DNA from: Eledone cirrhosa
Taxonomy: Eukaryota
DNA length: 64,000 nt
Reading direction: 5' to 3'
NCBI GenBank assembly: GCA_964016885.1
Contig: OZ024742.1
Coordinates: forward strand, 35,960,001-36,024,000
Part shown: piece after piece, positions 24,164 to 63,935 of the stretch
How positions within the stretch are numbered: the first letter of the stretch is position 1
How the letters are laid out: each line of letters starts with the position of its first letter
Made by a program: the position numbers and the translations under genes
The notes under the pieces: generated by a model
The model's input: only the letters and a program-made list of their open reading frames with translations
Told to the model about the DNA's origin: nothing
Database searches by the model: none

Positions 24164-24593
24164 ATATTATTTAAAATATTAATAAATGGATACATCACAT
24201 AATCGAAATATGTTTTATTATATATATTTCGGAGGTACTGTGCTGTTTTTTCAGTACGTCCTCATCAGATAAAATACATAAATTGATGCATGACATACCT
24301 CAACTGTGCTGATGGTTCAATTCAATGCCAAGACTGGAATTGAACCATCAGCACAGTTGAGGTATGTCATGCATCAATTTATGTATTTTATCTGATGAGG
24401 ACGTACTGAAAAAAACAGCACAGTACCTCCGAAATATATATAATAAAACATATATTTTGATTATGTGAATGTATCCATTTATTAATATTTTGAATAATAT
24501 TAATAACTCCAGAAAATGTCTTTGTTGAGTGCTTTTAATCTATTGTAAAACTGTATTCATTGAATAATCAATGAACCTTGTTTAACATTTGGT
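24164..24593 (+). mobile_element. PLE fold-back element: ~160-bp inverted arms plus unique tail, in (TA)n
   Basis: 24164-24323 is the reverse complement of 24338-24500. Hammerhead in the arm; tail hairpin ACTC(24506)..GAGT(24527). Confidence 0.85.
24381..24451 (+). ncRNA. Type I hammerhead ribozyme (antisense copy in left arm)
   Basis: TTTTAT-CTGATGA-GGACGTACTG..CAGTACCTCC-GAAA-TATATA-TA-ATAAAA; minimal palindromic stem III as in PLE hammerheads. Confidence 0.8.
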
Positions 24594-24664
24594 TATATAT
24601 ATATATATATATATATATATATATATATATATATATATATATATATATTAAAATAACAGATTAA

Positions 24665-24715
24665 AGTTTAAGCAAAGAATTGTTGCTTTCACCCTTAACG
24701 GGATCTTCTGAAACT
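24665..24715 (-). ncRNA. Hammerhead-like motif with variant core CAGAAGA
   Basis: AGTTT-CAGAAGA-TCCCgttaaGGGT-GAAA-GCAAcaattctTTGC-TT-AAACT; all three stems pair. Second copy at 48188-48238. Confidence 0.6.
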
Positions 24716-24891
24716 AACAAATTCAATCTGTGAACGCAGAAGTGAATATTTCAAAAAATGTTGCAGCCGGAGGAAGACAGGAAGACGATATTTGCTCTAC
24801 GGTTCTTATATATTTGATATATATTTATCCTTATCGAGCCCTCTTTGGATTTTAGTCTTCAAATTTATTATTATTTATATATATATATATA

Positions 24892-25443
24892 CCAAGCTGT
24901 GAAACGCCGCCCAGGCTTTGCTCTTCCTCTCAACCACATCATCTTCCGTATTCCCAATCTTTGCTCCCAAATACAAGAAGTCTTCAACCAATTCTAGCGG
25001 CTTCCCGCCTACATTAGTGGTCCCCTCTGGCTTCTCAACATTCTCTACCAGATATTTTGTTTTAGTCTCATTCATTCTCAGCCCCACACTTATCGACACA
25101 GTCTCAACCTCCTGCATCAAATCCTCTGCCTCCTTCACTGTATTTGTGACCAAAACTATGTCGTCGGCAAATTCAGCATCCGATATCTTTTTCGCCTTAA
25201 CTCTCAGAGGAGACTGGGGTTAGCTGGACATGCTCACCGACATCCAGAGTTGACATTGCACTCAGTGCTCCTGTGGGAGCCCCTACATGGACACACTGGA
25301 AGAGGAAGACCAAGGTTAACGTATGTTGATGCCCTAAGGACAGACACTGGTCTGTTGGAAACGCAGGACATGGCAGCGATAATGAGGGACAGAGACCGCT
25401 GGAGAGAACTCGTCCATCGATCTCGGGAATTTTAACTGCCCTA
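24892..25443. mobile_element. RTE-like LINE fragment with 5' inversion, in (TA)n
   Basis: 24892-25220 (-) reads EFADDIVLVTNT..VGLRMNETKTKY..FLYLGA. 25220-25443 (+) reads LAGHAHRHPE..GRGRPRLTYVDAL..RDRWRELV. Confidence 0.8.
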
Positions 25444-25633
25444 GAATATATATATATTAAATCGAGACAGGCAAACCATATTATGTTAAATTAGTATTTT
25501 TTCAACCTAGCTAACTTGGTCATTTGCAATCCGAACACTTCTATAATTGTATAGATGTTCAACCCTCATATATTCATTTGTATATATATATATGGATTTC
25601 GGGAATTTTACCCGCCCTAAAATATATATATAT

Positions 25634-25932
25634 CGAGGTTAACTTTGCCTTTCATCCTTACGGGGTCGATAAAATAAAGTACCAGTAATGTACTGGGTAA
25701 TTGTTGGCCTTGTGCCAAAAGTAGAAACAATTATTTATTCAAAGGCGGTGGATTGGCAGTATCGGTAGAGAGTCGGACGCCATGCTTTGACGCATAGAGT
25801 TACGGCCCTTGCCATTCTGAGTTCAACTCCCGCCGAGGTTAACTTTGCCTTTCATCCTTACGGGGTCGATAAAATAAAGTACCAGTAATGCACTGGGTAT
25901 TTGCTGGCCTTGTGCTAAAAGTAGAAACAATT
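25634..25932 (+). mobile_element. tRNA-SINE, partial copy plus full copy in tandem
   Basis: Same family as 10975; the full copy starts ggcggtggattggcag at 25744. Confidence 0.8.
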
Positions 25933-26280
25933 ATTTATTCAAAATAATCCAACTTATTTTACAAACGGGATAAAAAAAAAAAAACCGTACGCAAATCCGC
26001 AGACCTTCCTATATTATAGTTTAGATTTCAAAGGTACAATGGTGTTTTCATCAGACAAAATGTAAGATTTGATATGCGACATACCGCTACGGTTTTAATT
26101 ATTCAATTCCAGTATTGGCAGTGATTTATTTCACCAACTCTTATATATATATATATATATATATATATATATATATATATATATATATATATATATATAT
26201 ATATATATATATATATATATATATATATATATATATATATATATATATATATATATATATATATATTATATATATATATA

Positions 26281-26408
26281 TAGGAACGAGTAGGACCCTG
26301 ACGGCTGAGCTCAAGCCGTTTCGTTCCTATCACCCACTCTACTACGCTAAGTATTGAGTACTTTGGTGCGTTATGGTCCACCTGGTTCCTTACCACATTT
26401 CCTTCGTT
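26281..26408 (+). mobile_element. Mini PLE fold-back (right arm mostly deleted) plus tail
   Basis: Same family as 48476-48672. Left arm carries the antisense GAAA-CGGC..GCCG-TC half-hammerhead; tail ACTC(26336)..GAGT(26356). Confidence 0.75.
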
Positions 26409-26428
26409 ATATATATATATATATATAT

Positions 26429-61571: not shown

Positions 61572-61660
61572 AACCCACCGATTGTGTTGTTATTTCTGTT
61601 TACCTTTTACATACATATATATATATATATATATATTTATTATTCAGGATAATAATAATA

Positions 61661-62110
61661 TATACAATATATTAATAAATGGAAACTATATTTATAAAAC
61701 CATAATTATTTTATTATATATATTGCAAGGGCAACCAAGGCAAATTATGGTGCGCTTTCATCAGATAAAATACAGATTTGTTTTATAAATAAATATTGAC
61801 ATACCCGGAAAAAAGACAACCTCAGCGGTTGACATTCGCTGGATAGCTATCCAGCGAATTTCAACCGTTGAGGTTGTCTTTTGTCAATATTTATTTATAA
61901 AACGAATCTGTATTTTATCTGATGAAAGCACACCATAATTTACCTTGGTTGCCCTTGAAATATATATAATAAAATAATTATGGTTTTATAAATATAGTTT
62001 CCATTTATTAATATATTGTATATTTATTCCATTTAATGTTGAGTGCTTTATATCAGTTATAAAAATGTTTTAAGCTTGTTGAATCCCAACAAATTAAATA
62101 TAACCTCTAC
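61661..62110 (+). mobile_element. PLE fold-back element with hammerhead (61911-61976) and tail
   Basis: Palindrome centred at ggatag|ctatcc (61846); TATTTTAT-CTGATGA..GAAA-TATATA-TA-ATAAAATA; tail ATTC..GAGT(62041). Confidence 0.85.
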
Positions 62111-62307
62111 ATATATATATATGTAAAAGGTAAACAGAAATAACAACACAATCTGTACAGTATATGGACGGTATATATTAGGTTAACGCTTGATATAGAA
62201 GAAAGAGGGTCTTAACGTTTCGGACGCTAGTCCTTCATCAGAAGAAAGAATGGTAAATAAAATAGTATATATATATGTGTGTGTGTGTGTGTGTGTGTGT
62301 GTGTGTG

Positions 62308-62488
62308 TGAAAAGATTCAGCTCCGACCGTTTCGACAGCTAGACCCGAAATCGGATCTAGCTGTCGAAACGGCCGGAGCTCAGCCGTCGAGGTCCTGAAT
62401 CTTTTCATATTACCCACGTACTACCCCAAGTATTGAGTACTCTGGTCGGTCATGGTCCACCTGGTTTCTTTTACCACACCCTATCTGA
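62308..62488 (+). mobile_element. Nested mini PLE fold-back plus tail
   Basis: Same family as 48476; GAAA-CGGC..GCCG-TC; tail tactaccccaagtattgagtactctgg. Confidence 0.75.
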
Positions 62489-62540
62489 TATATGTATATA
62501 TATATATATATGTGTGTGTGCATGTGTGTGTGTATGTGTA

Positions 62541-62642
62541 TACAGGGCGTCCCCCATAAAATGTATACATACTTTGATTACCTGTACAGGCAATATTCAT
62601 TAGAATGTAGTCTTTTTGTATACATTTTTCGGACACCCTGTG
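62541..62642. mobile_element. Tiny Tc1-type MITE
   Basis: cagggcgtcc..aaaatgtataca / tgtatacatttt..ggacaccctg TIRs. Confidence 0.55.
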
Positions 62643-62867
62643 TTATTTTTATCTAAAGACATTTTTTCCAATTCCAACCCGCCCGTCCCCTCAATCTATC
62701 TTATTTCTCATCTTTCTTCTGATGAAGGACTAGTGTCCGAAACGTTAAGACCCTCTTCCTGCTATATCAAGCGTTAACCTAATATATACCTTCCATATAC
62801 TGTACCGATTGTGTTGTTATTTCTGTTTACCTTTTACATACATATATATATATATATATATATATAT

Positions 62868-63053
62868 TTATTATTCAGGATAATAATAAATGAAGACATT
62901 CACATTATCAATATATATATTGATTATGTGAATGTCTTCATTTATTATTATTCTGAATAATAATAACCCCAGAAAATTTTCTTGTAGGGTGCTTTTAATC
63001 TATTGTAAAACTATATTCATTGAGTAATCAATGAACCACATTAATCTTTGGTC
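62868..63053 (+). mobile_element. Mini PLE fold-back plus tail (family of 24164)
   Basis: Palindrome 62868-62963; tail homologous to 24500-24593 but with ACCC/GGGT. Confidence 0.8.
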
Positions 63054-63269
63054 TATATATATATACAATAGCACAGCATATTCGAAGTTCGATCAGCAGC
63101 CAAACCAACGAATGCCTACAGCAGTGGAGCCAAACACTCGACAAGGAATAAACCTCAGAGTAATAACATACACTTTAAAGGGCTTTGCAAATTGAAAATA
63201 GCGACCGCTAAGTTAGCAGCGTGATCTGTAGCAACGAAAGAACTGACTAGTGAGAAAATGAAATACTCA

Positions 63270-63935
63270 CATATATATATATCATATATTGAGTTATAAA
63301 CTCGAAATAGTCTTTTACAATTAAATAGCTCAAAGAAGGGAATATTTCCGAGCCGTGTAATACAAATGAATATATGAGAGGGATGAACACAGATACAAGT
63401 ATACATGTGTTCGAATTGCAAATGACCAAGTTAACTAGATTGAAAAATACTAATTTGAAATAATATGGTTTGCCTGTCTCGATTTAAAGTAATAAATCAA
63501 TAAAAATAACAAACCTATATTGGTAATAGGCCGTGATACCCGGACAGATTCTAAATCTGTTTCGCAACAATTATTAAGTGAAAGTCACTATCCCTGTGCT
63601 CTTCTGCGGGTAGCCAGGAAATTCGTACCTTTCACTTCAAAATACTCAAGAAGACTGAGAGATATGTGTTGTTGAACGCACATGTGTCACAGCGCCTAAC
63701 TCGTCTCATACTTTCACTTAATAATTGTTGTGAAACAGATTTAGAATCTGTCCGGGTATCACGGCCATTACCAATATAGGTTTGTTATTTTTATTGATTT
63801 ATTACTTTAAATCGAGACAGGCAAACCATATTATTTTAAATTAGTATTTTTCAACCTAGCTAACTTGGTCATTTGCAATTCGAACACATGTATACTTGTA
63901 TACATGTGTTCATCCCTCTCATATATTCATTTGTA
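63270..63935 (-). mobile_element. PLE fold-back element (~225-bp arms) with variant hammerhead and tail
   Basis: Arms 63361-63585 and 63710-63935; minus-strand tail GGCTC-GGAA..TTCT-TT-GAGCT (63327-63354). A fragment with the same terminus lies at 25456-25582. Confidence 0.85.
63537..63612 (-). ncRNA. Hammerhead with variant core CAGAAGA
   Basis: TACCCG-CAGAAGA-GCAcag..ttgtTGC-GAAA-CAGATTtagAATCTG-TC-CGGGTA; perfect 6-bp stem I, 7-bp stem III and a GUC site. Confidence 0.7.

What the first reader, a model, noticed from the sequence alone, without database searches (positions are those of the whole stretch)
24164..63935. A size continuum (0.1-4.4 kb) of head-to-head PLE palindromes in (TA)n suggests two-ended target priming
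SEEN: at least 13 insertions (24164, 26281, 26429, 30001, 31211, 43580, 48266, 48476, 61188, 61661, 62122, 62308, 62868, 63270) have two 3' ends pointing outward into microsatellite. Their truncated 5' ends meet in the middle. Usually only one arm carries the tail, and one (62122) has none. In 43580 and 63270 the central spacer contains extra 5' sequence of one arm. They look like MITEs but lack transposase-type TIRs and carry hammerheads. KNOWN: inverted 5' pLTRs occur in Penelope insertions. INFERENCE: both ends of a break in (TA)n prime cDNA (one internally, one from the tail), or the cDNA snaps back. The products would be cruciform-prone DNA and long dsRNA hairpins (ADAR or siRNA substrates) that mask their own ribozymes.
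Basis: partly seen in the sequence, partly recalled or inferred. Interest (0 to 1): 0.75.

Follow-up and report, generated by a model that had tools for sequence, protein, structure and literature searches.

The report
Twin-primed Hydra Penelope palindromic insertions
These mirror-image inserts are real, very common copies of a known kind of jumping gene (Penelope-like retroelements), and because almost every one pairs a long end with a short end copied from the same source, they likely form when both cut DNA strands start copying one RNA at two fixed points, which would explain a long-noticed but unexplained shape of these elements.

Summary
Mostly confirmed: 13 of the 14 listed sites are head-to-head insertions of Penelope-like retroelements (Hydra clade shown for two of the families); 62122 is probably two separate copies. 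Each family has two fixed 3' ends: A (with tail) and B (without). For the 43580 family, 33 of 34 outward-facing end pairs on contig C1 are A+B (p=2e-9; 101-6312 bp). In 17 of 33 the geometry excludes snap-back. The two arms share one haplotype (6 discordant of 600 comparisons, 224 expected), and junctions are microhomology joins that differ between loci. Best reading: twin target priming on one RNA. Small families are not a continuum: thousands stop at one spot with TATA at -30 and an initiator-like motif, likely the RNA start. Short reads from another study show strand-switch joints. ADAR/siRNA roles are untested; no A-to-G excess was seen. The shape (inverted pLTR, one-sided tail) and two in vitro start sites are published; six literature searches showed no paper proposing twin priming for these elements. 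This scan has reported the same reading on other DNA, in this genome and others.

The parts
24164..24595 (.). Family F2 palindrome: tail-less arm 24164-24323 (-), tailed arm 24324-24500 (+), tail 24501-24595; hammerhead cores at 24268 (-) and 24392 (+); the tailed arm begins at the predicted RNA start
26281..26409 (.). F5-like insertion: 43-nt tail-less arm (-) joined through TCG microhomology to about 9 nt plus tail (+)
   Evidence: read from the sequence
26429..26926 (.). Family F4 palindrome: arms 26429-26570 and 26645-26786, spacer belongs to the right arm, tail to 26926, complete hammerhead core
30001..30584 (.). Family F3 palindrome: tail-less arm 30001-30263 including the spacer (-), tailed arm 30264-30499 (+), tail 30500-30584; hammerheads at 30100 (-) and 30395 (+)
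31211..31396 (.). Family F6 palindrome: tail 31211-31287 on the left, arms 31288-31396 centred just downstream of the predicted RNA start, hammerhead core in the arms
43581..48125 (.). Family F1 (Hydra clade) palindrome: tail 43581-43688, tailed arm 43689-45796 (-), spacer 45797-46022 continuing the tail-less arm 46023-48125 (+); 5'-truncated RT plus GIY-YIG ORF on both strands
48266..48455 (.). Older F5-like palindrome (arms about 80% alike) with tail on the right
48476..48676 (.). Family F5 palindrome: arms 48476-48533 and 48535-48592, tail to 48676; centre at the family's stop point AGTCC
61190..61365 (.). Family F7 short palindrome (39-bp arms) with tail on the right; left flank (CA)n
61661..62111 (.). 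F3-like palindrome with tail on the right; hammerhead at 61919 (+)
62122..62841 (.). Family F8: probably two separate single-arm copies in opposite orientation (62122-62265 and about 62643-62841) around microsatellite, the 62308 insertion and a TIR-like element; not a twin-primed palindrome
62308..62487 (.). F5-like palindrome with a short deletion in the left arm, tail on the right, left flank (TG)n
62868..63054 (.). F2-like short palindrome (48-bp arms) with tail on the right; no hammerhead (arms too short)
63282..63935 (.). Family F9 palindrome: tail 63282-63362 on the left, arms 63363-63585 and 63710-63933, spacer read by eye as part of the left arm, with a CAGAAGA hammerhead-core variant
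31583..37838 (-). Family F11: full-length Hydra-type element (915-aa open frame 33597-36344) in partial tandem (direct repeat of about 1.35 kb), hammerheads at 31667 and 36552; the kind of copy that would supply the enzyme

Best explanation
These are insertions of several Penelope-like retrotransposon families (Hydra clade shown for two, likely for most), and the palindromes likely arise by twin target-primed reverse transcription, in which both strands of one cut in (TA)n would each prime a cDNA on the same RNA, one at the tail end (A) and one 80-140 nt upstream (B). Shown: two fixed 3' ends, A+B pairing, a shared haplotype, microhomology or short-insert junctions, and either arm the longer. 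Inferred: the element's GIY-YIG cuts both strands of the self-complementary (TA)n. An RT dimer bound at a conserved tail hairpin assigns one primer to A and one to B. With no RNase H (recalled), the RNA survives and is copied twice by strand displacement. The two cDNA 3' ends anneal and prime each other's second strand. If one cDNA aborts, a plain 5'-truncated copy results. When the enzyme uses the tail next to the transcript's 5' end, both cDNAs run off the RNA start, which gives the stereotyped 100-300 bp palindromes.
For: F1 on contig C1: 33 of 34 outward pairs are A+B, 1 A+A, 0 B+B, against 50% expected, p=1.7e-9. Four of 10 fetched 'unpaired' ends also had a partner, all A+B. F3: 20 A+B, 1 possible A+A, 1 unresolved, 8 single-arm of 30 loci. 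F5: 23 B+A, 1 B+B, 5 single or unresolved of 29 insertions. Of the 33 F1 pairs, A reaches further 5' in 13, the arms are equal in 3, B reaches further in 8, and the A arm lies wholly in the tail in 9. Same template: 6 discordant of 600 comparisons at 40 family polymorphisms against 224 expected; arm-arm divergence 0.55% against 1.6% between copies; 5' end points coupled (4 of 24 within 20 nt, p=0.004; 11 of 24 within 250 nt, p=0.002). Run-off at an RNA start: a TATA-like box lies at -30 to -32 of the stop point in F1, F2, F3, F6 and one of two F5 copies, and in F1 it is the only TATA-plus-initiator site among 187 A positions. In F6, 9 of 11 unambiguous non-templated bases after a full-length arm are C (hand count of 50 listed sites). 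L137 has both arms ending at +1 with one C between them. Short reads from another study drop 45-110-fold at the F5 stop point and show opposite-strand joints. In vitro, a Poseidon PLE cuts and extends both strands, starts at two sites flanking the tail and is predicted to be a dimer (PMC11167929).
Against: Exceptions exist: A+A at C1:328.44 Mb and L115, possibly L244; B+B at L269. Many ends are single-arm (5 of 10 fetched unpaired ends). In vitro, both strands used the same start sites without bias (PMC11167929), so the strict A+B assignment is not yet seen biochemically. Two RNAs from one source locus would also give a shared haplotype. The 600 comparisons are not all independent. The +1 positions were chosen after seeing the ends. 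F5 shows no C preference (4 C, 10 A, 2 G). F3 ends scatter 3-8 nt upstream of +1. Few F1 ends lie at +1 (3 of 145 within 3 nt). Recurrent junctions in F5 and F6 leave room for some unit copying. The read-depth drop may be inflated by RAD-site bias and by subfamilies that diverge upstream. No empty allele, target-site duplication or RNA 5' end was observed.
Confidence: 0.8

Rival explanations
1. Snap-back: one cDNA folds back on itself and is copied, so the second arm is a copy of the first.
For: It predicts a shared haplotype and microhomology at the junction, and both are seen. It is geometrically possible for the 16 of 33 pairs where the tailed arm is longer or equal.
Against: The copy cannot carry a tail that its template lacks. 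In 8 of 33 pairs the spacer-bearing arm has no tail (also window 43580 and 30001), and in 9 of 33 the second arm shares no sequence with the first. It does not explain why the second arm ends exactly at B.
Confidence: 0.05
2. Two RNA molecules from the same source locus, one per RT subunit, are primed from the two ends (still two-ended priming, but not one RNA).
For: Compatible with A+B pairing and the shared haplotype.
Against: 5' end points away from the RNA start coincide more often than chance (L128, L147). Co-packaging of two RNAs from one locus among many active haplotypes (19 of 24 ORF polymorphisms at third codon positions) needs an extra assumption.
Confidence: 0.1
3. The short palindromes amplify as units (MITE-like) from palindromic master copies whose hairpin RNA is copied whole.
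For: Thousands of near-identical sizes: 4464 exact F5 and 1302 exact F6 sites. The commonest junction occurs in 7 of 50 and 13 of 50 listed sites.
Against: About 35 distinct junctions among 50 F5 sites (hand count). The same junction occurs in both polarities relative to the tail. The centres match a predicted promoter of the parent element. An F5 copy is joined to a Hydra-type RT frame (L183). There are no transposase-type ends.
Confidence: 0.04
4. Self-priming on an antisense template (PMC3846280), or an assembly artefact of palindromic long reads.
For: Self-priming is the published reading of head-to-head junctions (passage).
Against: Both outer ends sit at the known sense-strand RT start positions, and centres lie at a sense-strand promoter, with C added in F6. 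The arms carry independent mutations (0.55%). Illumina reads from another study show the joints.
Confidence: 0.01

Closest known systems
Hydra clade of C-terminal EN+ Penelope-like elements (Craig et al. 2021, PMC8557442; passages, section 11, supplement rows)
   Same: RWK, DKT, CxCx5C, CxxC and CxH motifs, C-terminal GIY-YIG, (TA)n target. The paper describes an inverted 5'-truncated copy and a tail often at one end only. Its supplement lists Hydra-1_Obim from an octopus.
   Different: Tails here are 80-140 nt rather than 30-40. The unit is 3.1 kb. The paper ascribes the tail to endonuclease resolution and gives no A/B pairing counts. The 43580 family lacks a canonical hammerhead stem I.
Poseidon PAc of Anolis in vitro (Frangieh et al. 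2024, PMC11167929; parts 1-2 of 4 and passages)
   Same: Two internal RT start sites bracketing the tail, both strands cut and extended, AT-rich target, predicted dimer.
   Different: In the parts read it does not link the two sites to inverted insertions, and it reports no strand difference in start site; here the two ends of one insertion almost always use different sites.
Penelope of Drosophila virilis and Adineta vaga (PMC2377424, PMC3846280; passages)
   Same: Partial tandems, inverted pLTR, head-to-head junctions, promoter and RNA start inside the pLTR.
   Different: Explained there by antisense self-priming; tens of copies rather than thousands of stereotyped mini-palindromes.
L1 twin priming (Ostertag and Kazazian 2001; recalled, paper not held)
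   Same: Two target 3' ends prime on one RNA and the cDNAs are joined by microhomology.
   Different: In L1 the second primer anneals at a variable site and the two cDNAs barely overlap; here both sites are fixed and the same stretch is copied twice.
PLE minimal hammerheads and non-LTR retrozymes (PMC4209133 passages; bioRxiv 10.64898/2026.07.22.740005 part 1 of 5)
   Same: Type I cores with palindromic stem III, a U3-A8 variant (F5), and pairs on opposite strands 100-700 bp apart already noted.
   Different: Retrozymes are tandem arrays; these are head-to-head by-products of autonomous families.

Membership tests
Hydra-clade PLE | Single ORF with RT and C-terminal GIY-YIG | tested here: met
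   783-aa frame with YRDD and YVGST; read from motifs, since Pfam and PDB searches gave no meaningful hit
Hydra-clade PLE | RWK and DKT motifs | tested here: met
   F1 has RWK at 46 and DKT at 128; F11 has RWR and DKT
Hydra-clade PLE | CxCx5C linker, with CxxC and CxH in the endonuclease | tested here: met
   CNCVQPGMC, CKLC, CNH in F1; the same pattern in F11
Hydra-clade PLE | Insertion into (TA)n | tested here: met
   655 A ends and 542 B ends exactly followed by TA repeats (the patterns required this); flanks mostly TA
Hydra-clade PLE | Canonical hammerhead in the pLTR | tested here: inconclusive
   Met for F11 (Rfam Hammerhead_1, 31.7 bits, E=1.3e-4, below gathering), F2 and F3; F1 has the core letters but no proximal stem I
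Hydra-clade PLE | Placement in the Hydra clade on an RT tree; absence of CCHH and IFD by alignment | not tested
   No reference sequences were aligned; for F2-F4 and F6-F9 no ORF was recovered, so their clade rests on tail and target likeness
EN+ PLE insertion structure | Partial tandem, inverted 5'-truncated copy, one-sided tail | tested here: met
MITE (class II) | Fixed length and junction, transposase-type TIRs | tested here: not met
   Variable junctions, asymmetric ends, sequence continuous with an RT-encoding parent
MITE (class II) | Target-site duplication | not testable with these tools
   (TA)n flanks hide a duplication; no empty allele was examined
Non-LTR retrozyme | Tandem array of hammerhead-bearing units | tested here: not met
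   Arrangement is head-to-head, and many copies hold only half a ribozyme

The most novel reading that the evidence does not exclude
Penelope-like elements integrate by obligatory asymmetric twin priming: an RT-endonuclease dimer docked on a conserved bulged hairpin in the tail assigns one cut strand to start site A and the other to B on a single RNA. The two cDNAs prime each other's second strand, so the genome's mini-palindromes are a fossil map of each family's capped transcription start.
Probability: 0.55. Interest if true: 0.72.

Novelty: new member of a known kind. Interest (0 to 1): 0.5.

Why it matters
How PLEs form inverted repeats and one-sided tails is named as an open question in PMC8557442. 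The 33-of-34 pairing, the single-template signal and the tail-only arms turn it into a direct test with the existing in vitro system. The reading also gives a route to second-strand synthesis without a separate primer. In practice, one-sided-tail palindromes occur at roughly one per 10 kb in a 400-kb sample (40 by an uncurated scan, 12 with the Hydra-type tail motif). They are easily mislabelled as MITEs or microRNA precursors (Rfam miRNA models hit them below threshold) and are a large potential source of hairpin RNA.

Tried and rejected
Rfam at gathering threshold found no hammerhead. Pfam and PDB sequence searches on the ORFs gave nothing meaningful, and the protein atlas gave no result. 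Fossil A-to-I editing: no A>G excess among 36 shared private variants in F1; other families not tested. Ends at the ribozyme cut: 1 of 145 F1 ends sits exactly there; in F5, 5 of 29 insertions have an arm ending within 4 nt of it, mostly 1-4 nt beyond, which fits stalling at stem III equally well, so this is inconclusive. A cap-type C was not found in F5. The MAFFT alignment of 15 tails was too poor for covariation counting. The first F3 parse was swamped by TA repeats and was redone with masking, and the tail labels were wrong for homopolymer variants and were not used. A hairpin-DNA intermediate cut with a fixed stagger is rejected because either arm can be the longer. No RNA data were available. 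Supplementary figures of PMC11167929 and supplements of the bioRxiv preprint were not seen and may bear on what is already published.
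Full report
Setting. The window is G000:C3:35960001-36024000 in a 3.0-Gb animal genome. An octopod host is a recalled resemblance and comes from no call.

Observation. Self-comparison and direct reading confirm inverted arms at the listed sites. 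Thirteen of 14 have one arm ending in an 80-140-nt tail and one without; 26281 is an extreme case with about 9 nt plus tail as its second arm. 62122 is probably two separate copies. Hammerhead content varies: complete core 6, variant 2, 3' half 4, none 2. A descriptor gave 8 hits in the window and 15 in 400 kb of regularly spaced stretches from C1-C4, with 0 in the reversed controls. An uncurated scan of that 400 kb found 40 microsatellite-flanked palindromes with a one-sided extension, 12 of them with the tail motif, so the window is rich but not exceptional.

Identity. The 43580 arms carry a 5'-truncated RT plus GIY-YIG frame. A real full copy (L003) has a 3124-nt unit and a 783-aa frame with RWK, DKT, CxCx5C, CxxC and CxH. 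These are the Hydra-clade signatures in PMC8557442 section 11. No tree was built. The tail is the first 109 or so nt of the next unit, so both 3' ends are internal to a tandem-type RNA, as in PMC11167929. A second Hydra-type element lies complete at 31583-37838. An F5 copy is joined to a Hydra-type RT frame (L183), so the 48476 family is not an independent MITE.

Pairing rule. Exact patterns found 655 A ends and 542 B ends of F1. The lists are complete for contig C1 (93 and 81). Of 34 outward-facing pairs within 12 kb, 33 are A+B, one is A+A and none is B+B (p=1.7e-9), with spans of 101-6312 bp; 58 A and 48 B ends were unpaired. Of 10 unpaired ends fetched, 4 had a partner missed by the exact pattern (all A+B), 5 were single-arm and 1 was unresolved. 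One more A+A (L115) turned up elsewhere. F3 gave 20 A+B, 1 possible A+A, 1 unresolved and 8 single-arm of 30 best hits, including the window copy. F5 gave 23 B+A, 1 B+B and 5 single or unresolved of 29 insertions.

Snap-back test. A fold-back copy cannot carry more 3' sequence than its template. Among the 33 pairs, A reaches further 5' in 13, the arms are equal in 3, B reaches further in 8, and in 9 the A arm lies wholly within the tail (hand classification). So 17 of 33 cannot be snap-back; neither can window 43580 or 30001. Junctions are unique in F1, mostly with 1-14 nt of microhomology or short templated inserts.

One template. Across 75 inverted segment pairs, 6 of 600 comparisons at 40 polymorphic sites were discordant, against 224 expected from random copies. 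Tandem copies gave 1 of 118 against 45. Arms differ by 0.55% and separate insertions by 1.6%. 5' end points are closer than in permutations. The comparisons are not all independent, and two RNAs from one locus are not excluded. Shared private variants show no A>G excess (3 of 36).

Small families stop at one place. F5 has 4464 and F6 1302 exact-pattern palindromes. Among the first 50 of each, F5 shows about 35 distinct junctions (commonest 7) and F6's commonest occurs 13 times; identical junctions occur with the tail on either side. Illumina reads of three runs from another study fall 45-110-fold across the F5 stop point and include opposite-strand joints (RAD data, 90% likeness), which argues against a long-read artefact. 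A TATA-like box lies 30-32 nt upstream of the stop point in F1, F2, F3, F6 and one of two F5 copies, with initiator-like sequence at +1. In F1 it is the only such site among 187 A positions, and L137 has both arms ending there with one C between them. In F6, 9 of 11 unambiguous non-templated bases after a full arm are C (4 more ambiguous; hand count), as expected opposite a cap (recalled). Against this reading: F5 shows no C bias, F3 ends scatter, few F1 ends are at +1, the positions were picked after the fact, and no RNA was seen. Penelope's transcript starts inside the pLTR (PMC2377424 passages).

Tail structure. In 9 of 17 tails the best-scoring motif was a 4-bp ACUC/GAGU or GCUC/GAGC stem with a two-pyrimidine bulge and a second stem of varying sequence; for those nine, 0-16 of 200 shuffles scored as well. 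The others scored a different helix or none, including F1. Its role as the enzyme's binding site is an inference.

Prior knowledge. Inverted 5' copies with a one-sided tail are described (PMC8557442, PMC3846280), as are opposite-strand hammerhead pairs and the U3-A8 core (PMC4209133). Searches listed no paper proposing twin priming for PLEs; the library lacks most subscription journals. Earlier notes of this scan reach the same reading in this and other genomes. I had reached twin priming before seeing them. They are not independent support.

Verdict. Real, abundant, and a known structure in a known clade. What goes beyond print is the quantified A+B rule, the single template and the likely run-off at the RNA start. 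Interest 0.5.

Noticed in passing
window 61578-61660 and 62806-62890: An 83-bp direct repeat (end of the F8 copy, TA run, first 24 nt of the 62868 arm) brackets 1.15 kb; possibly a templated insert or a local duplication.
   Followed up: partly
window 24045-24145, 24648-24720, 48186-48259: Solo tails abutting (TA)n without a body; these could be insertions in which only the A-primed cDNA survived.
   Followed up: partly
window 43581-48676, 26281-26926, 61661-63054: Insertions of different families stack side by side, each in the TA run flanking the previous one.
   Followed up: no
L189:1640-1700 (family F5): The parent's hammerhead has the U3-A8 covariant core (UUGACAA), and the family's stop point lies inside its stem II, so the short copies lack the 5' half.
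   Followed up: partly
family F6 (L281-L310): Two alternative tail-less ends about 10 nt apart; the predicted RNA start is the first base of hammerhead stem I.
   Followed up: partly
family F8 (L191-L220): A hammerhead-bearing family with a single 3' end in 30 of 30 hits and almost no inverted partners; may insert differently.
   Followed up: partly
random stretches L031-L070: Many palindromes with 45-65-nt tails lacking the Hydra-type motif, probably other PLE clades.
   Followed up: no
window 7988-8109: A 122-bp AT-rich palindrome outside microsatellite, with no match in 1.4 Mb of fetched loci.
   Followed up: partly
window 11829-12935: A degenerate (GGTTAG)n array, like interstitial telomeric repeat.
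   Followed up: no
window 13381-14466, 16125-19630, 54671-55552: Broken LINE-like RT frames and a mariner-like transposase fragment (labels by eye).
   Followed up: no
window 51446-53371 and 42792-43282: 30-bp (64 copies) and 18-bp (27 copies) minisatellites.
   Followed up: no
window 62540-62642: A short element with TIR-like ends between the two F8 copies.
   Followed up: partly
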